Source: Gammaproteobacteria bacterium
GTDB lineage: Bacteria > Pseudomonadota > Gammaproteobacteria > Eutrophobiales > Eutrophobiaceae
NCBI GenBank assembly: GCA_965202915.1
Contig: OZ241847.1
Span: 181,565-245,564 of the forward strand
Length of the DNA: 64,000 bases
Direction: 5' to 3'
Shown one piece after another: positions 34,116 to 51,826 of the stretch; position 1 is the first letter of the stretch, and the number at the start of each line of letters is the position of its first letter. Both the position numbers and the translations under genes were made by a program. The notes beneath the pieces are model-generated. The model was not told where the DNA came from. It worked only from the letters and a program-made list of their open reading frames with translations, and did no database searches.

Positions 34116-34739
34116 ATGATTAAAGATATGTCGATACAACAGTTTCTGGATCAGCTGGCGGGCAAGGTGGCGACCCCGGGGGGGGGCGCGGCGGCGGCGA
34201 TTTGCGGGGCGACCGGTGCCGCGCTGGTCAGCATGGTGGCCAATTTTACCATAGCCAAAAAGGGTTATGAGGACGTGGATGAAGAGGCCAGGGCAATGTT
34301 GGAGCAGTCCGAGGCATTGCGAACCCGGTTGACCGATGCCATTCAAGATGATTTGCAGGTATTTGATCGAGTCATGTCCGCGTATGGTTTGCCGAAGGCC
34401 AGTGATGAGCAAAAGACCGCCAGGACCGAGGCGATACAGGCGGCGTTAAAACAAGCGACTGATATACCACTGGCATGTGCACGCCTGTGCCGCGAAGTGG
34501 TGAATCTCAGTCTGGCCGCCGCGGAAAAAGGCAATCGTAACGTGATCAGCGACGCCGGCGTCGCGGTATTGGCCGGATACGCCGGCTTGAGAAGCGCGGC
34601 CTTGAACGTCTATATCAATACTGCCGGCATCAAAGACCGGCAATTTGCCGATGATCGTTGCCGCCAGTTGGAGGCGCTGCTGGAGGGTACCGAAGGCTTG
34701 AAGGAACGCATTTACCAAACGGTAAAGGACAGGCTATGA
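34116..34739 (+). CDS. fch: Methenyl-tetrahydrofolate cyclohydrolase (cyclodeaminase/cyclohydrolase family)
   Basis: 207 aa. The FLDQLAGKVATPGGGAAAAICGATGAALVSMV N-terminus is the family signature. It is divergent from mtdA. Confidence 0.85.
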   Translation: MIKDMSIQQFLDQLAGKVATPGGGAAAAICGATGAALVSMVANFTIAKKGYEDVDEEARAMLEQSEALRTRLTDAIQDDLQVFDRVMSAYGLPKASDEQKTARTEAIQAALKQATDIPLACARLCREVVNLSLAAAEKGNRNVISDAGVAVLAGYAGLRSAALNVYINTAGIKDRQFADDRCRQLEALLEGTEGLKERIYQTVKDRL

Positions 34740-35630
34740 GCGGTGTTCGGCGGTGTCGATCCGCATTGAGAAATCGATGGCGTGCATGTGTTTGGTCAGG
34801 CTGCCGATGGAGACCGAATCAACCCCGGTTGCGACGATTGTGGTGAGATTATCTTTATCTATGTTACCGGAGGCCTCGAGTTTGGCCCGCCCCCGGTTGA
34901 TCGCGACCGCCTGTTTTAATTGATCGACGCTGAAGTTATCGAGCAATATGCCGTCCGCACCCGCTGACAGCGCTTGTTCCAATTCCTCCAGGGTTTCGAC
35001 CTCGACGTGAACCGGTGGCCCCTGTTTTTTGGCCGCCGCGACCGCGTTGGACAATCCGCGTTGCGCCAGTATATGGTTTTCCTTTATCAAAAAGCCGTCA
35101 TAAAGGCCGATCCGTTGGTGATCGCCGCCGCCGCAGATCACCGCGTATTTCTGGGCCAGTCTCAGGCCCGGAATGGTTTTGCGGGTATCGAGCAGGCGCG
35201 CCTGGGTGCCGGCGATGATTTTGGCGTATTCAGCAACGGTGGTGGCGGTGCCGGACAGGGTTTGCAGAAAATTGATCGCGGTGCGTTCTCCGCTCAGTAA
35301 GGGCCGGATCGGGCCTTGCAGTTTGCACAGGATTTGATCGGCGTCAATCACGCGGGCGTCGTCGCTGAACCATTCCACGGTAATGCCTGGGTCAAGGCAA
35401 TGAAATACTTCGTTAAACCAGTCACAACCGCATAAAACCGCCTGTTCGCGTGCGATTAATGTAGCCGTGACCAGCGCCTCCCTCGGCACCAAGGCGGTGG
35501 TAATATCGCCCTGGCCCAGGTCTTCATCCAGTGCCGCCCGCACCGCCGATTTGATCGCCTGCGGTGGTATTTTACTGCGGAATCGCTTGTGCATGGGCCT
35601 GGGTATGGGCCTGGGCCTGGAATGATTCAT
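34734..35630 (-). CDS. nadC: Nicotinate-nucleotide pyrophosphorylase (carboxylating)
   Basis: Contains LDEDLGQGDITT, ERTAINFLQ, DTRKT PGLR, GGGxxHR, LLDNF and the C-terminal ASGNI...GVDSVSIGSLT. The real start may be the ATG at 35594. Confidence 0.92.
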   Translation of the reverse strand: MNHSRPRPIPRPMHKRFRSKIPPQAIKSAVRAALDEDLGQGDITTALVPREALVTATLIAREQAVLCGCDWFNEVFHCLDPGITVEWFSDDARVIDADQILCKLQGPIRPLLSGERTAINFLQTLSGTATTVAEYAKIIAGTQARLLDTRKTIPGLRLAQKYAVICGGGDHQRIGLYDGFLIKENHILAQRGLSNAVAAAKKQGPPVHVEVETLEELEQALSAGADGILLDNFSVDQLKQAVAINRGRAKLEASGNIDKDNLTTIVATGVDSVSIGSLTKHMHAIDFSMRIDTAEHRS

Positions 35631-39650: not shown

Positions 39651-41036
39651 ATGCTGGTAATATATAATAGTTTAACGAAAACCAAGCAAATATTTGAACC
39701 GATCACGCCCGGACAGGTGCGGATGTACGTCTGCGGTATGACCGTGTACGATTATTGCCACCTGGGTCACGCCAGGGTGATGGTGGTGTTTGACATGATT
39801 GCACGCTACCTTAGGGAGCAGAATTATCGGGTCAACTATGTTCGCAATATTACCGATATCGATGACAAGATCATTAACCGCGCCAATGAGAATAACGAAC
39901 CGATAGAGGCCCTGACCGGGCGTTTCATTGCCGCAATGCATCAGGACGCCGCGGCCCTGGGGGTATTGCCGCCGGATCAGGAGCCCAGGGCAACCGAGCA
40001 TATCGATCAGATCATTGCGATGATCACGGCCTTAATCGACAACGGATACGCCTATCACGCCGATAATAATGACGTTTATTTTAACGTCAGCCGGGCCCGC
40101 AAGTACGGCGTATTATCGGGCAAGAATATAGACGAACTCAGGGCCGGGGAGCGTGTTGCAGTCCGGCAGGGTAAGGATGATCCGCTTGATTTTGTATTGT
40201 GGAAGGCCTCCAAACCGAATGAACCCTGCTGGGATTCCCCCTGGTGCAAGGGCCGACCGGGTTGGCATATAGAATGCTCGGCGATGTCGACTCATTGTCT
40301 GGGGGATCATTTTGATATTCACGGCGGTGGCCGGGACCTGCAGTTTCCGCACCATGAAAATGAGATAGTGCAATCCGAATGCGCCACCGGCGAGTCGTTT
40401 GTCAACGTCTGGGTCCACAATGGGTTTGTGCGGGTGGATGAGGAAAAGATGTCGAAGTCATTAAATAATTTTTTTACCGTCAGGGAACTGCTCAGCCGGT
40501 ATCCGGCGGAGGTGCTGCGCTTTTTTATCCTTTCCAGTCATTATCGCAGTCCGCTCGGTTATAGCGCCGAGGTTCTGCAGGCGGCCAAACTTGGGTTAAG
40601 CGGTCTTTATACCTGCCTCAGGGACGGCGATATCGATAATGCCGCCGATACGGCCCCGGATAAAACCTACCTGGCGCGGTTTAATGAGGCGATGGATGAC
40701 GATTTTAATACCGTCAGGGCGATAGCCCTGCTGCATGAGCTGGCCCACGCCGCCCATCGCGCGGGCAAAGGCTCGGAAACATCGCGCCGTTGCGTGGCCA
40801 CGTTAAAACGTCTCGGCGCCGTGCTGGGTTTATTGCAGGATGATCCACTGGAATTTCTCCAGCGCGGCAATCAAGCCGTCGACGCCGACGCCATTCAGGC
40901 GTTAATCGACCAGCGCAATCAGGCCCGTGCGGATAAGGATTTTGTTCGCGCCGACCGTATCAGGGAACAGCTTACCAGGCAGGGCATCGCCCTTGAAGAT
41001 ACCGCCAACGGAACGCTTTGGCGAAGTGCGCAGTGA
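39651..41036 (+). CDS. cysS: Cysteine-tRNA ligase
   Basis: 461 aa. Contains [18 protein letters not shown] (HIGH) and KMSKSLNN (KMSKS), plus zinc ligands. Confidence 0.97.
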
Positions 41037-41109: not shown

Positions 41110-41186
41110 CGGGGCATGGCGCAGTCTGGTAGCGCATCTGCTTTGGGAGCAGAGGGTCGGGGGTTCAAATCCCTCTGCCCCGACCA
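41110..41186 (+). tRNA. tRNA-Pro (anticodon UGG)
   Basis: Cloverleaf CGGGGCA...TGCCCCGACCA. Anticodon loop TTTGGGA and T-loop GTTCAAAT. Confidence 0.9.
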
Positions 41187-41222
41187 AATTTATCCGGCAC
41201 CGGGTCGGTCCGAGATTGACGT

Positions 41223-41299
41223 GCGCCTGTAGCTCAACCGGATAGAGCACCGGCCTTCTAAGCCGGGGGTTAGAGGTTCGAGCCCTCTCGGGCGCGCCA
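41223..41299 (+). tRNA. tRNA-Arg (anticodon UCU)
   Basis: Cloverleaf GCGCCTG...CGGGCGCGCCA. Anticodon stem-loop CCGGC-CTTCTAA-GCCGG. Confidence 0.9.
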
Positions 41300-41381
41300 T
41301 GAATGGGTCGGAACCGGATCGCGATCCATATTACAAAATGGAGCATGGCCAATGTCCGCAGTAATTTTGTCGATCAACGTT

Positions 41382-41458
41382 GGTGACTGTAGCTCAGTTG
41401 GTAGAGCCCCGGTTTGTGGTACCGGCCGTCGTGGGTTCGAGTCCCATCAGTCACCCCA
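41382..41458 (+). tRNA. tRNA-His (anticodon GUG) with encoded G-1
   Basis: GGTGACTG...CAGTCACCCCA with anticodon loop TTGTGGT. The extra 5' G is typical of bacterial tRNA-His. Confidence 0.9.
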
Positions 41459-41478
41459 GTTTATCGATTTGTTTCGAT

Positions 41479-41554
41479 GGGCCGTTAGCTCAGCTGGTAG
41501 AGCAGGGGACTCTTAATCCCAAGGTCATAGGTTCGACCCCTATACGGCCCACCA
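41479..41554 (+). tRNA. tRNA-Lys (anticodon CUU)
   Basis: GGGCCGT...ACGGCCCACCA with anticodon loop CTCTTAA and T-loop GTTCGAC. Confidence 0.9.
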
Positions 41555-41615
41555 TCCAAGCGAGTCGGGTGCGGGGTGCTGATTTTTCCGGTATCCCGGT
41601 GGCGTCAAAAAACAC

Positions 41616-41644
41616 TTGCCGGCGGCGATGGAATATGCTATGAT
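41616..41644 (+). promoter_or_regulatory. Possible sigma70 promoter of the giant repeat-protein gene
   Basis: TTGCCG (41616-41621), a 17-nt spacer, then TATGAT (41639-41644). It lies 25 nt upstream of the first ATG. Confidence 0.3.
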
Positions 41645-41669
41645 TCTCAGCCGTTTGATAGTGTAATCA

Positions 41670-44600
41670 ATGATTGAGGTAACGTACGTGACTGAGATAG
41701 GAATGGATACATATCGCACTGGGCACAAACTCCCGACTGGCCTGGGTTCCGGGGCTACCCCCCCCCCCCCCCCCCCCCCCCCGCATCCAGAGGGCCCTCG
41801 CGGGTACTTCAAGTATAAGTGCTTCGCTTTACCCCGCCGGATATTTTCGCTCCTCGGTCTGCTTGCGCTGGCTTTGTTGCCGCCGCAGTCCCTGGCGCAG
41901 ACTACTACTACCTATTCCAGTAACGACACGCCGGTTAATATACAGCGGGGCTTTGACTTTAATAACTTCGGCCCGCCTGCAGACAGTAATATAATAATCA
42001 CAGACGATAGGACTATAAGTACGATCTCTGTCTCTCTTGATATAAATTATCCTGTTGGGTCAGGACTTACTATTGAGCTGAGAGCGCCCGATGGTTCCAA
42101 TATCATACTTGTTGCTGATGCGTTCAGCCGCTTTATGCCGACCTACACTGAAACCTCCGGACTTGTAGCGCTTGTCGGTACCCGCACAGCCGGCATGTGG
42201 AGGTTGAGGGTCAGGTCACAGGAACCATTCCGAGGCATGATAAACAGTTGGTCCATAAGCGTTACCTCGCCGGGCGCCGCCCCGACCTTCGGTACTGAGA
42301 CCATCTCCCCCCAGCAGTACGCCACTGAGGGCGCCATCACCCCGTTGACCCTGCCGGCGGCCACCGGCGGTGATGGTACGCTCAGCTACAGCATTGTTGA
42401 ACCCCTGCCGGATGGGCTGTCATTTGACGCCACCACCCGCATTCTAAGCGGCATACCGAGCGCCGGCACTGAACAAGCGGCCTCGCGCTATACCTACCGG
42501 GCCGAGGATAGCGATGGTGACGTAGCGGGTTTATTGTTCACCATCGCGATTAGACCCAGAGTGACCTTTGGCAGTGCGACCATCGCCCCCCAGAATTACA
42601 GCACCGGTGCACCCATCACCCTGCTGACCCTGCCGGAAGCCAGCGGCGGCAACCCGCCGCTCAGTTACAGCATTGTTGAAGCCCTGCCGGATGGGCTGAC
42701 ATTTGACGCCACCACCCGCACCCTGAGCGGTACACCGGAGGCCGGACAACCAGCCTTGACCTATACCTACCGGGTGACGGATACCGTTAACATAACGGCA
42801 GATTTGACCTTCACCATCGAGATTACAGACACCCCGGTCGCCATGGACTTCACGGCGGACCTGTACCGAGACCCTGACGTATTCACAACGCCCACCGTCA
42901 CCATCGACTTTAACGATTTGATTGCTGATGGCACCACCTCTGATGCGGACTTGGTGGTGACCCTCATGGACTTTACCAACCCCAGCGTCATGCTGGTCAG
43001 TGGCGGCGAGATCGATGCCGCCACTGACGTCCTGACCCTGGACAGTACCAAGCTGCTGGAAGTCTCCAGCGTCGCCGGCACCGATCTCGCCCCCCATACG
43101 TTCCGCTATACCGTGACCGACGAGGGCCGCAATACCGCGACCGCCAACCTGACCCTGCGCATCGATGAGCGGCCAACCCTTTCCTATATTAATACCGAGT
43201 TTAACGTATCCGGTCGATTCATCATGTTGGGCACGGAGCCTAGCGGCGGGCGTGAACTTCTGACGCCCACGAACAGCCACACCCCGCATGGCGAGGAATT
43301 GAGAGTTGTTGCAGTGCCTAATCTTGCCAATTCTAATTTTAGGAGGCGTTTTGATCCCGTTGACGGTCGGACCATTAATGTGCTCTATACGTTTACTCCC
43401 GGCTTTACCGGTCGCGTCAGCGGCACGTTCACCGTAGGTTTATACGCCACGGCCAACTCTATTGCCAACACCATCATCCCGCTGATGAATGCCGACGTTG
43501 TTGCCGGAGACCTGCTCATCTCTGCCAGCGCAACCTTCACCTTCATTGTCCCCAGCGCCCCACCGGTGCTCACGCCGCCCGTCGTGGCCAACCCCTATCC
43601 GCCCAACCAGGAGATTGAACTGCGCTTCAGCGCCACCGATGCGGAAAACCATGCACTCAGCTTCTCCCTGGAGGCAGTTACGGGCAGTCCCCGTACCCTG
43701 CCGGCCAATGCAACCTTTGCCCCGACCGAGGCACAAGCACCCCCGGCCACCGCCACCTTCACCTGGACCCCCACCGGCGCGGACGCGGGCACCTACCGCT
43801 TTAACGTCGTCGCCACTGAAACCACGACCGCGCTCAATACAGCGCCGGCCACCACCCGCTTCCAGGTCATGCTGGTCATCGCATCGCCGCTCACCTTCAG
43901 TGGCACCACCAGCGGCGCGGTCACCGAGAACGCCCGGACCAACACCGCCGGCGGCACCCTGATGATTGAGGACCTGGCAGGTGGCGACGAAAACTTTGCG
44001 GTACAAAACGAGGTCGGCACCTACGGCACCTTCTCCATTAATGCCAACGGCGTCTGGACTTACACCCTGGACAATGCCGACGACGACACCAATGCGCTGG
44101 CCGAAAGCACCACCGTCACCGACGTCTTCACCGTCGCGGCCAATGCCCGGCCCAGCGCCACCCAGGACGTTACCATTACCATCACCGGCGCCAACGACGC
44201 CCCCACCGCCACCATCAGCGCACCGCTGAACAACGTCGAGGTCGGCACCAGTACCGTGGTCACACTCACCGGCACCGGCAGCGACCCGGACACCGGCGAC
44301 GCGATCACCCGCTATGCGTGGAGCGCCAGCCCCGCCCAGGGCAGCTTTGCCGATGCCTCCATGGCCGACACCACCTGGACCGCACCGTCTGGCGTGGGGA
44401 ACGTCGTCCTGACCCTGACGGTCACCGACGGCAACGACGCCACCGACAGTGCCACCATTACCGTCCGAGTGGTGCCGGTACCGGTCACCATCACCGGCGA
44501 CGTCATCGGTGCCGTGACCGAAGACCGGGGTGGCTTCAACCGAGCGATGGGCGACCTGAACATTACCACCAGGGCCACCTTGAGCACCTTCGTCCCGCAA

Positions 44601-47291
44601 ACCGACGTATCCGGCACCTACGGTACCTTCTCCATTAATGCCGACGGCATGTGGACCTACGACATCGACAATAGTCGTGCCGCCACCCAGAACCTGGCCG
44701 AGGGTGCCATGGCCGACGACGTCTTCACCGTCGTCGCGGCCGCCCGCAACACCGCCACGGCAATCGTCACCATCACCGTCACCGGCACCAATGAGCAGCC
44801 CACCGCCACCATCAGCGCCCCGACGAACGGTGCGACGGTGAATGCCGGTGTCCCGGTCCCGCTCACCGGCACCGGCACCGACGTCGACACCGGCGACTCA
44901 ACCCTTTTAAGTTACCAGTGGAGTACCACGTCCCCGACCCAGGGCAGTTTCGCCAATGCCACTCAGTCCACCACCACCTGGACCCCGTCGGACACTGCGG
45001 TGGACACCGACGTCACGCTGACCCTGACCGTCACCGATGCCAGCGGCGCCGCCAATGACTCCGCAACCGCCACGGTCACCGTCCGGGTAACGGAAGCAAC
45101 GCTCACCATCAGCGGCGACACCGCGGGCGCGGTCACCGAAGATGATGACGCCAGCAACGTCGCGAGCGGCGCTCTGGGCATTACCACCCCCCTCGCTGAC
45201 GACACCTTTGCGGCACAAAACGAGGTGGGCACCTACGGCACCTTCACCATCGCTACCAACGGCGTCTGGAGCTACACCCTCAACGACGACGATGAAGACA
45301 CCAATATGCTGGCCGAAGGCGCCCCCACCGTCACCGACGTCTTCACCGTCACGGCCAATGCCCGGCCCAGTGCCACCCAGGACGTCACCATTACCATCAC
45401 CGGTGCCAACGACGCCCCCACCGCCACCATCAGCGCACCGCCGAACAACGTCGAGGTCGGCACCAGTACCGTGGTCACACTCACCGGTGCCAACAGCAGC
45501 GACCCGGACACCGGCGACGCGATCACCCGCTATGCGTGGAGCGCCAGCCCCGCCCAGGGCAGCTTTGCCGATGCCTCCATGGCCGACACCACCTGGACCG
45601 CACCGTCTGGCGTGGGGAACGTCGTCCTGACCCTGACGGTCACCGACGGCAACGACGCCACCGACAGTGCCACCATTACCGTCCGGGTGGTGCCGGTACC
45701 GGTCACCATCACCGGCGACGTCATCGGTGCCGTGACCGAAGACCGGGGTGGCTTCAACCGAGCGATGGGCGACCTGAACATTACCACCACGGCCGTCTTG
45801 AGCACCTTCGTCCCGCAAACCAACGTATCCGGCACCTACGGCACCTTCTCCATTAATGCCGACGGCATGTGGACCTACGACATCGACAATAGTCGTGCCG
45901 CAACCCAGAACCTGGCCGAGGGCGCCATGGCCGATGACGTCTTCACCGTCGTCGCGGCCGCCCGCGCCACCGCCACGGCAATCGTCACCATCACCGTCAC
46001 CGGCGCCAATGAGCAGCCCACCGCAAGCATCAGCGCACCGACGGACGGTGCGACGGTGAATGCCGGCGTCCCGGTCGCGCTCACCGGCATCGGTACCGAC
46101 GTCGACACCGGCGACCCGGCCAGTCTGAGTTACCAGTGGAGTACCACGCCCCCGAACCAGGGCAGTTTCGCCAATGCCACCCTGGCCACCACCACCTGGA
46201 CCCCGTCGGACACCGCGGTGGGCACCGACGTCACGCTGACCCTGACCGTCACCGATACCAGCGGTGCCGCCAACGACACCGCGACTGCCACGGTCACCGT
46301 GCGGGTAACGGCAACGACGCTCACCATCAGCGGCACCGCCACCACCGGCGCGGTCACCGAAGATGATAACGCCAACAACACCGCAAGCGGCGACCTGGAC
46401 ATAGCCACCACCCTCGCTGACGCCACCTTCGTCCCGCAAACCAACCTGTCCGGCGTCTACGGCTTTTTCTCCATTGATGCCGACGGCAACTGGAATTACC
46501 GGCTGGACAACGATGACGTCGACACCCAGGCCCTGGCCTCGGACGCCACCGCCCCCGACGTCTTTACCGCACGGGCCAGTGCCCGGCCCGGCGTCACTCA
46601 GGCCGTCACCCTCACCATCACCGGCGCTAATGACGCGCCCACCGTGACCATCGATACGCCGGCGGATGACACCGCAACCAGCGTCGGCAACCCGGTCACG
46701 CTCACCGCCACCGGCGCTGACGTCGACACCGGCGATGAGGCTGGTCTGCGCTACCAGTGGAGTACCACGCCCCCAAACCGGGGCAGTTTCGGCAATGCCA
46801 CCGCCGCCAACACCACCTGGACTGCACCGACCACCCCCGGTAACGTCATGCTGACCGTGACCGTCACCGATACCAGCGGCGCCGCCAACGACGCCGCTAC
46901 CGCTACCGTCACCCTCATCATCGACACGACGATGTTCCTGCCGGACCTGAGCGGCAACGGTGATTTGCAGGCGTCGGACGCCCAGATATTGTATTACCTC
47001 GGGCTGCCACCGTCGCCGAGCAGGACTCGTTTGCTGGATAGTCTGGGGGTCTCGGCCGACATGGTCGACCAGGTCAACGCCCGTGCGGAAAACTGGCAAA
47101 ATCAGGAGCCGCTGTCGGACCTCAACGGTAACGGCGAAAGGGACCGGCAGGACGCCCAAATTCTTTACTACACGGCACGCTTTGGCCCCCTGCTGGAGGT
47201 CAGCCCGACACTGTTGCAGGCGGTGCTGGGTGATTTGGCGAGGAACCCGACCGCGGCACTGAACAACGCCCGCAGGTTGCTTAACCGCTGA
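41670..47291 (+). CDS. Giant secreted repeat protein (putative adhesin, 1873 aa)
   Basis: Sec-type signal RRIFSLLGLLALALLPPQSLA-Q. P-domain pattern at about 41990-42270 (ISVSLDINYPVGSGLTIELRAPDGS...GMWRLRV...INSWSISV). Ig-like repeats (LSYSIVEPLPDGLSFDATTRILSG). Six modules alternate a VCBS-like motif (GTYGTFSINANGVWTYTLDN...ITGANDAPTA) with a PKD-like motif (TGTGSDPDTGD...YAWS...LTLTVTD). The C-terminus holds a dockerin-like EF-hand pair. Confidence 0.9.
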   Translation: MIEVTYVTEIGMDTYRTGHKLPTGLGSGATPPPPPPPPHPEGPRGYFKYKCFALPRRIFSLLGLLALALLPPQSLAQTTTTYSSNDTPVNIQRGFDFNNFGPPADSNIIITDDRTISTISVSLDINYPVGSGLTIELRAPDGSNIILVADAFSRFMPTYTETSGLVALVGTRTAGMWRLRVRSQEPFRGMINSWSISVTSPGAAPTFGTETISPQQYATEGAITPLTLPAATGGDGTLSYSIVEPLPDGLSFDATTRILSGIPSAGTEQAASRYTYRAEDSDGDVAGLLFTIAIRPRVTFGSATIAPQNYSTGAPITLLTLPEASGGNPPLSYSIVEALPDGLTFDATTRTLSGTPEAGQPALTYTYRVTDTVNITADLTFTIEITDTPVAMDFTADLYRDPDVFTTPTVTIDFNDLIADGTTSDADLVVTLMDFTNPSVMLVSGGEIDAATDVLTLDSTKLLEVSSVAGTDLAPHTFRYTVTDEGRNTATANLTLRIDERPTLSYINTEFNVSGRFIMLGTEPSGGRELLTPTNSHTPHGEELRVVAVPNLANSNFRRRFDPVDGRTINVLYTFTPGFTGRVSGTFTVGLYATANSIANTIIPLMNADVVAGDLLISASATFTFIVPSAPPVLTPPVVANPYPPNQEIELRFSATDAENHALSFSLEAVTGSPRTLPANATFAPTEAQAPPATATFTWTPTGADAGTYRFNVVATETTTALNTAPATTRFQVMLVIASPLTFSGTTSGAVTENARTNTAGGTLMIEDLAGGDENFAVQNEVGTYGTFSINANGVWTYTLDNADDDTNALAESTTVTDVFTVAANARPSATQDVTITITGANDAPTATISAPLNNVEVGTSTVVTLTGTGSDPDTGDAITRYAWSASPAQGSFADASMADTTWTAPSGVGNVVLTLTVTDGNDATDSATITVRVVPVPVTITGDVIGAVTEDRGGFNRAMGDLNITTRATLSTFVPQTDVSGTYGTFSINADGMWTYDIDNSRAATQNLAEGAMADDVFTVVAAARNTATAIVTITVTGTNEQPTATISAPTNGATVNAGVPVPLTGTGTDVDTGDSTLLSYQWSTTSPTQGSFANATQSTTTWTPSDTAVDTDVTLTLTVTDASGAANDSATATVTVRVTEATLTISGDTAGAVTEDDDASNVASGALGITTPLADDTFAAQNEVGTYGTFTIATNGVWSYTLNDDDEDTNMLAEGAPTVTDVFTVTANARPSATQDVTITITGANDAPTATISAPPNNVEVGTSTVVTLTGANSSDPDTGDAITRYAWSASPAQGSFADASMADTTWTAPSGVGNVVLTLTVTDGNDATDSATITVRVVPVPVTITGDVIGAVTEDRGGFNRAMGDLNITTTAVLSTFVPQTNVSGTYGTFSINADGMWTYDIDNSRAATQNLAEGAMADDVFTVVAAARATATAIVTITVTGANEQPTASISAPTDGATVNAGVPVALTGIGTDVDTGDPASLSYQWSTTPPNQGSFANATLATTTWTPSDTAVGTDVTLTLTVTDTSGAANDTATATVTVRVTATTLTISGTATTGAVTEDDNANNTASGDLDIATTLADATFVPQTNLSGVYGFFSIDADGNWNYRLDNDDVDTQALASDATAPDVFTARASARPGVTQAVTLTITGANDAPTVTIDTPADDTATSVGNPVTLTATGADVDTGDEAGLRYQWSTTPPNRGSFGNATAANTTWTAPTTPGNVMLTVTVTDTSGAANDAATATVTLIIDTTMFLPDLSGNGDLQASDAQILYYLGLPPSPSRTRLLDSLGVSADMVDQVNARAENWQNQEPLSDLNGNGERDRQDAQILYYTARFGPLLEVSPTLLQAVLGDLARNPTAALNNARRLLNR
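41758..41782 (+). repeat. Homopolymeric tract of 25 C inside the 5' end of the giant gene (translated as Pro8)
   Basis: Direct count: ccc at 41758-41760 plus 22 c at 41761-41782. It lies downstream of all candidate start codons (41670, 41688, 41703) and upstream of the signal peptide. Confidence 0.95.
43890..46925 (+). repeat. Intragenic tandem repeat array: about 609-nt modules organised as about 1.2-kb super-repeats (period 1215/1218 nt), two copies nearly identical
   Basis: Off-frame track ORFs recur at an exact +1218 offset (44318 vs 45536; 44312 vs 45530; 44638 vs 45856). Hand alignment of 44121-44330 with 45336-45548 shows only a few substitutions and one 3-nt indel. Confidence 0.9.
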
Positions 47292-47303: not shown

Positions 47304-47435
47304 GATGAGGAAAAGCAGTGCCTGACCGTATGCAGGCGGTGAGGTCAGGACTGTACGCTCAATCCGCGCACCGGCGCCCGCAAATGCAGACGGGTTTGCA
47401 GGCAGTTCGGTGAGGAATGCTTTGCTGACTTATGA
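47304..47435 (+). pseudogene. Nonsense-mutated remnant of the C-terminal half of the twin-CX3CX6C protein gene
   Basis: Hand alignment with 51301-51420 gives 9 mismatches in 120 nt. The Trp codon TGG of the intact copy is TGA here (47340-47342). There is no start codon or signal peptide upstream. Confidence 0.75.
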
Positions 47436-47660
47436 GAGTTGTTCACCATACTTAGGCGGGTCATTGCCGCGACCGGTTTCTCCGCGGGGGCGCCAATAGG
47501 GTGAATTTGAGCGGCCTCACCGATGCAGGAACTATACGCCCCTATCGGTGCATTTCGAGGTTGCCATGACGATAAGACGGCAGTGAAAGTTACGATCTTA
47601 TACTGATTTGGCTTCTCAGTTTTCTCAACCGCTAATGACTATTTCTTTTAAGTGGTTCTT

Positions 47661-49271
47661 TTAAGTGGGGTCAATGATTCCTTCGCCAATCATGCGAATC
47701 GCGGTAACACTGGGGACAAAAAAGTAATCTCCTCCCCTTGTTTCCACAAAGCGAGGGAGGTTGCTGCAGAATAAAGGAGCATCCTGACCATTTTCAGGAT
47801 CGGCTTCGATCATGGTCCGGCCCGCTGGTTTTCCATTCTCAGTTGAATGGTTTCCTAATAAAGGGTCCTTGTCGTTTGATAGTTTAAAGTCATTTCCATA
47901 GTTGATCCATTGCTGCTGCAAAAATTCAAATTGCCTTTTAATGCTGGTATTGAGTGCCATAAAAATGATGCCGTGTTCTCCATCGTCCTTAGTCGGATCT
48001 TTTACTTCTCCATACGGCAGGCCGCGCCTCGCGATACGACGCCGATTGTCCAAGGCTCCGGGTGTGTTAAATGGTTTTTCCTTTGCCTTGTCTTTCACAA
48101 ACTCTAAATATCCACGAGGGTTATTTCTGCGAACGTGGGCACCGAAGGGACATCCTGCTCCATCCAGGTCGTGGTTGTAATCAAAGGCAACGAGTCTTTT
48201 TTTAAGCTCTTCTAACTCTTCCTGAGCCTGTTTGGCGGCCGCTTTATTATTGGCGGCCCTGGCTGCGTCTCGTTTAGCCCTGGTCTCACTGATAGTTGTA
48301 ATGAATTGATCTGCCTCTTCCCGGGTGGGAAAGGTGGTGATAGGGGCTCCATTTTTCCACCTTCCTGCAAATTTGGCGGCAAGCATATCTTTTCCACCCG
48401 GCAAATCTTTGCCTTTCTCTTCTAAATAGCGGTTAAAACTGCCTACGTTTTCATGCAGTTTTCGATAAACCATGAACGTTCCATTGAAAGAGAGCAGGCG
48501 CGGCTCAGGGGCGATGGGGTATTCCTGCAATTCATCTCGATGTCCTAAAATGAATTCTCCGGTTCCCAAGGGCTCCCATCCCTCACGAGTAGAGGGATCT
48601 AAACGGGTGGGCTTTCCTCCGCCTATGACACTGATGCCGGTTTTGATACATCCTTCAAAATAGGGGTCGCTAATTCCATCGGTATAACCGAAGTGTTCTT
48701 TAGGGGTGGGATTACCGTTTTCATCAAAAACGGCGGAGGCCGCTTGATACTCTTGATTCTCCCCCTGGTGTCCCAGCAGTTGTTCCACGCCTCCTTTTGT
48801 GCGGTCTTTGTGATCACAAATTACTTGATAGCGTTCTTTTAACGCGTTCTTATTTTGGGCGTTGATTGTGATTAAAATATCCACCGGGTTCTTCCAAATC
48901 GGGTCCCAGTTTTCCGGTGCACTGGCTTCATCGTCTCCCAGAATATTGATGCGGTCCTTCATTCCCATAATAAATTCTTCAGGAAAGCTATTCAGCGATT
49001 TAGTGGGCACGCCTAAGTGTTTTAATCCTTGAAAGGTAAAAGCGATATTTGTTGTAATTTGCGGGATTTTTGTTTTGTCTTCCTCTGAGCTTTTAGGATT
49101 CCATGGGGCGCCGGTTGTAATGAGATCAAGCAGGTTAAGGAGAAATTGGCGACCTGCGTCGCCTTGATGGACCCGATAGAAAACATAGCGGGCATAGGGG
49201 AAACCAAAACGGCCGTATCCTTTGATCACGTTGCCCTGAATATCATGCAAATCGAGTGCCGTGTTTGTCAT
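47661..49271 (-). CDS. DyP-type haem peroxidase (large, 536 aa, no signal peptide)
   Basis: Contains LHDIQGNVIKGY, the GXXDG motif FGYTDGISDP, the proximal-His region GAHVRRNNPR, the distal-Arg region RRGLPYG, and FEFLQQQW. It has a ~30-aa Ala/Lys/Glu coiled-coil insert. Confidence 0.9.
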   Translation of the reverse strand: MTNTALDLHDIQGNVIKGYGRFGFPYARYVFYRVHQGDAGRQFLLNLLDLITTGAPWNPKSSEEDKTKIPQITTNIAFTFQGLKHLGVPTKSLNSFPEEFIMGMKDRINILGDDEASAPENWDPIWKNPVDILITINAQNKNALKERYQVICDHKDRTKGGVEQLLGHQGENQEYQAASAVFDENGNPTPKEHFGYTDGISDPYFEGCIKTGISVIGGGKPTRLDPSTREGWEPLGTGEFILGHRDELQEYPIAPEPRLLSFNGTFMVYRKLHENVGSFNRYLEEKGKDLPGGKDMLAAKFAGRWKNGAPITTFPTREEADQFITTISETRAKRDAARAANNKAAAKQAQEELEELKKRLVAFDYNHDLDGAGCPFGAHVRRNNPRGYLEFVKDKAKEKPFNTPGALDNRRRIARRGLPYGEVKDPTKDDGEHGIIFMALNTSIKRQFEFLQQQWINYGNDFKLSNDKDPLLGNHSTENGKPAGRTMIEADPENGQDAPLFCSNLPRFVETRGGDYFFVPSVTAIRMIGEGIIDPT

Positions 49272-51150: not shown

Positions 51151-51420
51151 ATGAAACTTAACAAATTTTTTGTGCCGTTGTTTGCGTGTGTTTTGTTTAT
51201 CGCGTTCCAGAATGACGTTAATGCGGATGAACAACCCCGGACGCCCGCCACTGAGTCCAACCCTCTTGTTTTGCCCGATGAGGATCAGGATGCGGAAGAG
51301 CAGTGCCTTACCGTATGCAGGCAGTGGGGCCAGGATTGTACCCTCAATCCGCGCACCGGCGCCCGCAAATGCAGACGGGTTTGCAAGCAGTTCGGTGAGG
51401 AATGCTTTACTGACTTGTGA
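51151..51420 (+). CDS. Small secreted twin-CX3CX6C protein (89-aa precursor)
   Basis: ATG at 51151 with AGGAAA 10 nt upstream. Signal peptide MKLNKFFVPLFACVLFIAFQNDVNA, then an acidic linker. Next come CLTVCRQWGQDC and CRRVCKQFGEEC, an internal duplication of C-x3-C-x6-C. Confidence 0.7.
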   Translation: MKLNKFFVPLFACVLFIAFQNDVNADEQPRTPATESNPLVLPDEDQDAEEQCLTVCRQWGQDCTLNPRTGARKCRRVCKQFGEECFTDL

Positions 51421-51826
51421 GTATGGACCAGACTCCGTAGTCTGTGTCATCGGTTGTAAGCGGTTCGTATTCGCCATCCATCCGGAAACCATTGTCGCAG
51501 GTATATTGCAGACCGCCGTCATAGAGAAAACCAAATTCATTGTCATCCTTTGACCTCGACGCTGACCCGTTTGTATGCAGGTACGGATTGGGGACGCCGG
51601 TGTTAGCCTTACAGGTCTCCGGGAATGGCCTTAAAACCATCCTGCAAACCGACTTATCCCTTTAACGCGGGCCGCTGCGATGATGCCGCCGTGCGGGAGA
51701 TGGACGGCGGCGGGTTACTATGCTAATATTATGCGCATGCCTTGGAGGGCATGATGTGTTTGTTTGCCATGGATTTGTTGCCGGATTGGCATTGTTTCCG
51801 GATAGTTTATTTTTTGGAGAGACGTT

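What the first reader, a model, noticed from the sequence alone, without database searches (positions are those of the whole stretch)
41758..41782. 25-nt poly-C tract between the start codons and the signal peptide of the giant surface protein
I counted 25 consecutive C. All possible in-frame starts (ATG 41670, GTG 41688, ATG 41703) lie upstream of the tract. Between the tract and the hydrophobic core of the signal peptide there is no ATG, GTG or TTG in frame. Gain or loss of one or two C would therefore frameshift the whole 5.6-kb gene. This is the classic layout of slipped-strand translational phase variation of surface antigens, well described in pathogens. In the sequence as given the gene is ON.
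Basis: partly seen in the sequence, partly recalled or inferred. Interest (0 to 1): 0.72.

Follow-up and report, generated by a model that had tools for sequence, protein, structure and literature searches.

The report
Poly-C frameshift switch in adhesin gene
A run of 25 C's lies between the only usable start codons and the export signal of a 1,870-residue adhesin-like gene in an uncultured gammaproteobacterium, so it very probably turns the gene on and off by slippage, a classic mechanism seen here with an unusually long tract and not yet shown to vary.

Summary
Window 41758-41782 holds 25 consecutive C, the only homopolymer longer than 9 nt in the window. Only two A10 runs of 10 nt or more occur in 1.18 Mb of fetched loci.

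The tract lies inside ORF 41670-47291. The three canonical in-frame starts (41670, 41688, 41703) are all upstream of it. The next canonical start, TTG 41874, is already inside the hydrophobic core. Simulation gives a full-length product only for 19, 22, 25, 28 or 31 C. Other lengths give peptides of 41-44 or 100-103 aa.

New support:
- Three homologues (P0040, P0151, P0152) begin with short ordinary signal peptides.
- The two Met codons used by P0040 and P0151 align with AAG 41811 and ATA 41841 in the window, so this lineage lacks both downstream starts.
- GTG 41688 has a GAGG at -12, the usual spacing in this genome.
- A promoter-like site (41616-41644) lies upstream.

Still missing: no independent assembly crosses the tract, so length variation is unproven. 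The exact length, and hence the "ON" call, depends on one assembly.

Verdict: a well-laid-out but unproven translational phase-variation locus. It is a new member of a known kind, notable for tract length and for its host, an uncultured non-pathogen.

The parts
41616..41644 (+). Promoter-like site TTGCCG-17 nt-TATGAT with TG extension, 60 nt after tRNA-Lys. It would place the transcription start near 41651.
   Evidence: It is the only sigma-70-like match in 41300-42100, but 0.9 matches are expected by chance, so it is suggestive only.
41676..41690 (+). Shine-Dalgarno-like GAGG (41676-41679), 8 nt before GTG 41688. This is the best candidate initiation site. Alternatives are ATG 41670 (no SD) and ATG 41703 (AGGA directly abutting; used by the source record's gene call, P0132).
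   Evidence: GGAG, GAGG or AGGA at -16..-8 occurs before 12 of 39 window genes against 5% background. The GAGG here is at -12.
41688..41757 (+). The 23 codons of an N-terminal extension (MTEIGMDTYRTGHKLPTGLGSGAT) that have no counterpart in the homologues.
41758..41782 (+). The C25 homopolymer. In frame it encodes the last two bases of Thr plus eight Pro codons. It is the proposed slipped-strand switch.
41811..41813 (+). AAG (K48), at the position of the ATG start codon of homologue P0040/L005.
41841..41843 (+). ATA (I58), at the position of the second Met of P0040 and the annotated start Met of P0151.
41811..41897 (+). Signal-peptide-like segment KYKCFALPRR-IFSLLGLLALALLPP-QSLA|QT, aligned with the N-terminal signal peptides of the homologues.
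   Evidence: The cleavage site is inferred from the A-x-A type motif and the alignment. No signal-peptide predictor was available.
41898..47291 (+). Mature giant protein: a proprotein-convertase P-domain, 2 He_PIG domains, a family-specific region, 5 VCBS/Big_9/cadherin-like/K319L-PKD repeats (with a 1218-bp internal duplication), and a weak dockerin-like C-terminus.

Best explanation
The C25 run is a real hypermutable tract inside the 5' coding region of a secreted, adhesin-like giant protein. Translation starts upstream of it, most likely at GTG 41688 behind a GAGG Shine-Dalgarno. It reads through about 23 codons and the tract (Pro8), then continues into the signal peptide. Slipped-strand mispairing during replication adds or removes C's. 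Lengths of 3n+1 (22, 25, 28) give the full protein with 7-9 prolines. All other lengths end translation after 41-103 residues, before or out of frame with the signal peptide, so no protein is exported. The population would therefore always hold ON and OFF cells (a contingency locus). Shown here: the tract, the frame logic, the lack of downstream starts, and the homologues' start positions. Inferred: the actual start codon, the mutability, and the ON/OFF phenotype. Relatives start at ATG codons that are AAG and ATA here, so this lineage seems to have moved its start upstream of the tract, which makes expression strictly tract-dependent.
For: The tract is present and far beyond chance. Only the frame that is continuous with the gene has start codons upstream, and there is no canonical start between the tract and the hydrophobic core. 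Frame simulation gives ON only at 19, 22, 25, 28 and 31 C. Homologues P0040, P0151 and P0152 have 18-26-residue signal peptides starting at Met. The Met codons of P0040 and P0151 align to AAG 41811 and ATA 41841. GAGG lies at -12 of GTG 41688, the modal SD position in this window (12 of 39 genes against 5% background). A promoter-like site lies upstream. The 5.6-kb ORF is intact, and so are the neighbouring genes, so this is not an error-ridden assembly. No inverted repeats flank the region, no known RNA family matches it and it has no special RNA fold. Inter-strain indels in this species fall on mere 2-copy tandem repeats, so slippage operates here. The gene is strain-variable: it is truncated next to an IS91-like element in a 99.4%-identical strain, as expected for a surface determinant under fluctuating selection. 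Published precedents are Gardnerella nanH3, with C8-14 next to the signal-peptide region (10.1101/2020.09.16.300947), and Bordetella C/G tracts of up to 17 nt in coding regions and 22 nt at fim3 (PMC1891110).
Against: No second assembly or read set covers the tract, so length variation is unobserved. Logan contigs of the same species stop at 41155-41159 and at 47371. The open frame upstream of the tract is only 30 codons, about a 1-in-5 chance event. The promoter match is at chance level. The N-terminal extension has no homologue, so its translation is unsupported by conservation. A region of about 50 residues before the signal-peptide core is unusual. The exact tract length in a single assembly is uncertain, so 'ON' may be accidental. 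Only one long tract occurs in 64 kb, so there is no sign of a genome-wide set of phase-variable genes.
Confidence: 0.6

Rival explanations
1. The tract is real but not translated. It lies in the leader or upstream region of a gene that has lost its start codon(s) (ATG to AAG, ATG to ATA). The gene is then either a young pseudogene or is expressed only weakly from a near-cognate codon such as ATA 41841. On this reading the in-frame upstream starts are coincidental. The tract would be neutral or would at most tune transcription.
For: Both homologous Met positions are non-start codons here. The upstream open frame is short, about 0.2 probability by chance. The extension has no homologue. The gene is dispensable in a 99.4%-identical strain. 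The promoter-like hit is at chance level.
Against: The 1873-codon ORF, rich in repeats, has no stop or frameshift. A well-spaced GAGG precedes GTG 41688. ATA 41841 has no SD, and starting there would remove the charged n-region. No -35/-10 pair brackets the tract as in Bordetella fim promoters.
Confidence: 0.2
2. The tract, or its exact length, is an assembly or sequencing artefact: a low-complexity mis-join or a miscalled homopolymer in the single 2.49-Mb contig.
For: Only one assembly contains it. All short-read contigs of the same species break before reaching it. Homopolymers of this length are hard for every sequencing platform.
Against: The tract is in the middle of a well-assembled region with intact genes on both sides. 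It does not coincide with any synteny break point against related strains; those lie at 39757, 47174-47245 and 47371. It sits 28 nt upstream of the ancestral start position of a signal-peptide gene and keeps the frame with the only upstream starts. A random join would seldom do that. Short-read contig breaks are explained by the tRNA genes and a 133-bp repeat.
Confidence: 0.12
3. The tract acts mainly at the RNA level. RNA polymerase slips on the 25-nt run and makes transcripts with heterogeneous C number. A fixed fraction is then in frame whatever the DNA length. Together with EF-P-dependent translation of Pro8, this would give constitutive low-level expression (a dimmer) rather than a heritable ON/OFF switch.
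For: Inference only. Transcriptional slippage on long homopolymers is established for A/T runs of 9 nt or more (own knowledge). The run here is far longer than any known DNA-level switch needs (typical length 8-16: PMC2823697, PMC1891110).
Against: Slippage on G/C runs during elongation is much less documented (own knowledge). Nothing here tests it. It does not exclude DNA slippage, which must also occur.
Confidence: 0.08

Closest known systems
Gardnerella piotii nanH3 poly-C tract (10.1101/2020.09.16.300947)
   Same: A poly-C homopolymer in the 5' coding region of a secreted or cell-surface protein, adjacent to the signal-peptide-coding part. Only some lengths (9 or 12) give the full protein; others give peptides of about 40 aa. 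Annotation pipelines are confused by it.
   Different: There the tract is 8-14 nt, lies just after the signal peptide, and its length heterogeneity within colonies was shown experimentally. Here it is 25 nt, lies before the signal peptide in a lineage-specific extension, and no variation data exist.
Neisseria pilC poly-G tract in the signal-peptide-coding region (own knowledge: Jonsson et al. 1991, EMBO J) and other neisserial coding-region homopolymers (PMC5084427, PMC5953494)
   Same: A G/C homopolymer between the start codon and the mature part of an adhesin. Frameshifts switch expression ON and OFF.
   Different: Those tracts are about 10-17 nt, in human-adapted pathogens with many such loci per genome, and their switching is proven.
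Bordetella homopolymeric tracts: fim2, fim3 and fimX promoter C-stretches; coding tracts in tcfA and BB3110 (PMC1891110)
   Same: Long C/G runs linked to cell-envelope genes (a C/G tract of 22 listed for BB1658/fim3, given in the text as up to C19; 17 in tcfA and BB3110). This shows that runs of more than 20 nt can be kept in Proteobacteria.
   Different: The fim tracts act on transcription, lying between an activator site and the -10 box. Here no promoter elements bracket the tract and the logic is translational.
Helicobacter pylori oipA, hopZ and sabA CT repeats in the signal-peptide-coding region (PMC10564699, PMC2715451)
   Same: A simple sequence repeat in the 5' signal-sequence region of an outer-membrane adhesin gene that sets the reading frame.
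   Different: Those are dinucleotide repeats, in a pathogen, with experimentally linked phenotypes.

Membership tests
SSR-mediated translational phase variation (contingency locus) | A simple sequence repeat much longer than genome composition predicts | tested here: met
   C25 is present; about 1e-10 are expected in 64 kb. The next longest run is 9 nt. No run of 10 nt or more, apart from A10, occurs in 1.18 Mb of other loci.
SSR-mediated translational phase variation (contingency locus) | The repeat lies inside the ORF, downstream of the initiation codon, so that indels not divisible by 3 truncate the product | tested here: met
   All canonical in-frame starts are upstream, and none lies between the tract and the hydrophobic core. 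Homologue starts are replaced by AAG and ATA. Which codon is actually used is inferred (SD).
SSR-mediated translational phase variation (contingency locus) | Tract length differs within and between populations | not testable with these tools
   No other assembly spans the tract.
SSR-mediated translational phase variation (contingency locus) | Reversible high-frequency ON/OFF expression of the product | not testable with these tools
   This needs culture, single-cell or meta-omic experiments.
SSR-mediated translational phase variation (contingency locus) | The controlled gene encodes a surface-exposed or host/phage-interaction determinant | tested here: inconclusive
   The product has a signal-peptide-like N-terminus aligned with the homologues' signal peptides. 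It carries P-domain, He_PIG, VCBS, cadherin-like and PKD repeats and matches BapA-type adhesin models weakly. Its location is not shown. The gene is strain-variable.
Transcriptional phase variation by a promoter-spacer homopolymer (Bordetella fim or Neisseria opc/porA type) | The tract lies between the -35 (or activator site) and the -10 of the promoter that drives the gene | tested here: not met
   The only promoter-like pair (41616-41644) lies 114 nt upstream of the tract, and no hexamer pair brackets it. A TATAAG at 41813 would leave no room for an SD and a start before the signal peptide.
Invertible-DNA (site-specific recombination) phase switch | Inverted repeats flank a promoter or 5' segment, usually with a nearby recombinase | tested here: not met
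   No inverted repeats flank 41555-41900. No recombinase gene is adjacent.
Assembly artefact (low-complexity mis-join) | The tract coincides with a contig end or with a synteny break point against independent assemblies | tested here: inconclusive
   Break points against related strains are at 39757, 47174-47245 and 47371, not at the tract. However, no independent assembly crosses 41160-47170.

The most novel reading that the evidence does not exclude
An uncultured, non-pathogenic gammaproteobacterium has newly evolved a contingency locus. Its nearest CysS among GTDB species representatives is only 63% identical, and sample names hint at a marine, possibly invertebrate-associated habitat. On this reading the lineage lost both ancestral ATG starts of a modular giant adhesin and took up an upstream start across a 25-nt poly-C run. 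That is longer than any tract found in the papers read here (22 nt). At this length the switch may run near equilibrium, with about one third of cells ON, and may be supplemented by RNA-polymerase slippage and EF-P-dependent polyproline translation. That would be stochastic dosing of a host- or phage-facing protein in a symbiont rather than immune evasion in a pathogen.
Probability: 0.3. Interest if true: 0.65.

Novelty: new member of a known kind. Interest (0 to 1): 0.45.

Why it matters
If confirmed, slipped-strand contingency loci extend beyond the host-adapted pathogens where nearly all examples come from. The new setting would be an uncultured environmental or symbiotic gammaproteobacterium. 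The case would also show how such a switch can arise: loss of the native start codons, plus recruitment of an upstream start across a homopolymer. There is a practical point for metagenome annotation too. Such tracts decide whether giant adhesin genes are called intact, truncated or lacking a signal peptide. The mechanism itself is textbook, so the gain is in scope and evolution, not in principle.

Tried and rejected
- **Exact-protein look-ups of the giant protein:** three alternative starts were tried and none was on record. The source's own call (P0132, from ATG 41703) surfaced only in the representative library.
- **Word-indexed homology search with residues 1-387:** it was swamped by He_PIG hits. 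Only P0040 was informative.
- **GTDB scan for relatives of the N-terminus:** nothing found. A CysS scan showed no close species, at most 63% identity.
- **JGI scans:** a gapped DNA pattern across the tract gave 0 hits. The protein scan gave only 27%-identity P-domain hits.
- **Walking in from flanking genes (cysS, metallophosphatase, DyP):** this found the same species in at least seven samples, but every contig stops short of the tract.
- **The Botbay15 'rearrangement':** it turned out to be a scaffold with N20 gaps beside IS91 fragments.
- **P0151:** it could not be located on a contig.
- **Alternative features rejected:** no Tat or other N-terminal family model matched. No Rfam family other than tRNAs matched. 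The RNA fold is no more stable than shuffles, z = +2.2. tRNA-Lys has no att-like duplication. No flanking inverted repeats were found.
- **Literature searches:** sample accessions gave nothing relevant, and no listed paper combined 'sponge symbiont' with phase variation.

Full report
**Observation.** Window 41758-41782 is an uninterrupted run of 25 C. No other homopolymer in the 64-kb window exceeds 9 nt. At 26% C the chance expectation is about 1e-10. The run is therefore real in the sequence and not a composition effect.

**Context.**
- Upstream lie cysS (39651-41036) and a tRNA Pro-Arg-His-Lys cluster that ends at 41554.
- A sigma-70-like site, TTGCCG-17-TATGAT with a TG extension, sits at 41616-41644. 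It is the only such match in the 800 nt scanned, but about one is expected by chance.
- ORF 41670-47291 encodes 1873 residues. It has a proprotein-convertase P-domain, two He_PIG domains, a family-specific region, five VCBS/Big_9/cadherin-like/PKD repeats and a weak dockerin-like C-terminus.
- Neighbouring genes are intact and densely packed, so the assembly is not error-ridden.
- The gene contains a resolved 1218-bp internal duplication, with 300 nt at 99% identity.

**Frame logic.**
- In-frame ATG 41670, GTG 41688 and ATG 41703 all precede the tract.
- After the tract the first canonical in-frame start is TTG 41874, inside the hydrophobic core. Only the near-cognate ATA 41841 and some CTG codons come earlier.
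- The other two frames upstream of the tract have no start after their last stop (read).
- Rebuilding the gene with 19-31 C gives a full-length product only at 19, 22, 25, 28 and 31. Other lengths stop after 41-44 or 100-103 residues.
- Among 39 long ORFs of the window, 12 have GGAG, GAGG or AGGA starting at -16..-8, against 5% of random positions. GTG 41688 has GAGG at -12. ATG 41670 has none, and ATG 41703 has AGGA directly abutting it.
- The source record's gene call used ATG 41703 (P0132, 1862 aa). Every plausible start reads through the tract.

**Homologues.**
- No close orthologue exists in the GTDB representatives or in JGI contigs.
- The protein searches found a small modular family.
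  - P0040 (locus L005) is 45% identical in the N-terminal 700 residues and 80-87% identical in nucleotide sequence in the repeat region.
  - P0151 (1874 aa) is 70% identical over the C-terminal 1175 residues and 42% identical in the N-terminal query region.
  - P0152 (677 aa) is 42% identical in the N-terminal query region.
- All three begin with ordinary signal peptides of 18-26 residues:
  - P0040: MYHCLALVRLMVFGLGLLAVIPSAWA|QT
  - P0151: MVFGLGLLAPAVIPPAWA|QT
  - P0152: MHPRSTLFALCALALVPISDVSA|QA
- In protein and DNA alignments, the first Met of P0040 aligns with AAG 41811 in the window. Its second Met, which is the start Met of P0151, aligns with ATA 41841.
- L005 has no homopolymer upstream of its start.
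- The window lineage therefore lacks both downstream initiation codons. It carries instead an extension of about 41-52 residues that contains the tract and has no homologue.
- This is the strongest new argument that the tract is translated: an intact 5.6-kb gene with a recognisable signal peptide has no other canonical way to be expressed.

**Population data.**
- The window comes from a 2,489,980-bp contig held by NCBI/ENA.
- The same species, at 99.3-99.98% nucleotide identity, is present in five Logan runs (SRR23871859, 60, 62, 63, 65), in JGI 3300000051 and in ENA ERZ25068762.
- None of these assemblies crosses the tract. Short-read contigs end inside tRNA-Pro (41155-41159). On the far side they end at 47371, in a 133-bp direct repeat (47304-47436 / 51289-51421).
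- The ENA strain (L091) keeps only the last 117 nt of the giant gene, next to an IS91-like transposase. The JGI record is a scaffold with N20 gaps at both apparent break points.
- Tract-length variation, the defining property of phase variation, therefore could not be assessed.
- Two indirect points favour it. Inter-strain indels in this species fall on 2-copy tandem repeats of 12 and 13 nt. The gene itself is strain-variable.

**Alternatives examined.**
- *Promoter-spacer tract (Bordetella fim type):* no hexamer pair brackets the tract.
- *Invertible element:* no flanking inverted repeats.
- *Island att site:* the tRNA-Lys 3' end is not duplicated.
- *Known RNA element:* only tRNAs matched.
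- *Structured leader:* the fold is weaker than shuffles, z = +2.2.
- *Tat or other N-terminal motif models:* none matched.
- *Mis-join:* the tract is not at any synteny break point, and its position and frame relative to the gene would be an odd coincidence. Without spanning reads this cannot be excluded, and the exact length is uncertain.
- *Start-less decaying gene with a coincidental upstream frame:* this remains possible. The upstream open frame is only 30 codons, about a 0.2 chance.

**Comparison with known systems.**
- The layout is that of SSR-mediated translational phase variation.
- The closest documented cases are:
  - Gardnerella nanH3, with C8-14 beside the signal-peptide region and variation shown in colonies (10.1101/2020.09.16.300947);
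  - neisserial coding-region homopolymers such as pilC (own knowledge);
  - H. pylori CT repeats in signal-sequence regions (PMC10564699);
  - Bordetella C/G tracts, 17 nt in the coding regions of tcfA and BB3110 and a tract of 22 listed for BB1658/fim3, given in the text as up to C19 (PMC1891110).
- Typical functional tracts are 8-16 nt (PMC2823697).
- SSR mutation rates are 100-10,000 times basal rates and rise with repeat number (PMC11868660).
- A 25-nt run is thus at or beyond the upper end of what I found described. It should be extremely unstable.

**Verdict.**
- I rate the translational-switch model at about 0.6, a non-translated or decaying-gene reading at about 0.2, an artefact at about 0.12, and a mainly RNA-level slippage role at under 0.1.
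- Novelty: a new member of a known kind. It is notable for tract length, for the apparent relocation of the start codon, and for its occurrence in an uncultured gammaproteobacterium with no close GTDB relative (best CysS identity 63%).
- Interest is moderate, 0.45.

Noticed in passing
window 47304-47436 and 51289-51421: A 133-bp direct repeat (92% identical) brackets a low-GC (41-49%) block that carries a DyP-type peroxidase and three small genes. Short-read contigs of related strains break exactly there. One strain (L088) has an extra cytochrome P450 gene between window 50964 and 50969. The block looks like a cassette or islet.
   Followed up: partly
L091 12006-13019 (equivalent to window about 47174); L090 near 12030; L092 near 9700: In a 99.4%-identical strain an IS91-like (Y2_Tnp) transposase abuts the last 117 nt of the giant gene. 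The rest of the gene is absent from that locus, where DUF1631 and ABC-transporter genes follow. The JGI Botbay15 record shows the same junctions, but with N20 scaffold gaps beside IS91 fragments.
   Followed up: partly
window 35593-35615 and 47643-47668: Two-copy tandem repeats of 12 nt and 13 nt are the sites of the only indels between the window and Logan strains L001 and L089. Slippage or unequal-recombination polymorphism is therefore visible even at very short repeats.
   Followed up: yes
window 44273-44572 and 45491-45790 (period 1218 nt); also five copies of units about 600-620 nt apart across 43986-46916: The giant gene contains a recent 1218-bp tandem duplication (300 nt at 99%) within a five-fold VCBS/PKD module array. 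This is a likely substrate for repeat-number variation of the protein.
   Followed up: partly
L005 10001-17187; P0151; P0152: The giant protein belongs to a small modular family. The C-terminal repeat region is 70-87% identical between members, while the N-terminal signal peptide and P-domain are only about 42-47% identical. In L005 the homologue is split into three ORFs (569, 238 and 1514 aa). This suggests module shuffling or gene conversion, and possibly decay.
   Followed up: partly
window 34178-34186: A G9 run lies 62 nt into the FTCD_C-domain gene (34116-34739). It has the same length in Logan strain L093. Cluster members of this protein have lengths 207, 206 and 168 aa.
   Followed up: partly
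window 39651-41036: cysS is recorded with two different starts: 461 aa in the Logan calls and 437 aa in the source record (P0105). The nearest CysS among GTDB species representatives is only 63% identical, so the organism has no close relative in that collection.
   Followed up: partly
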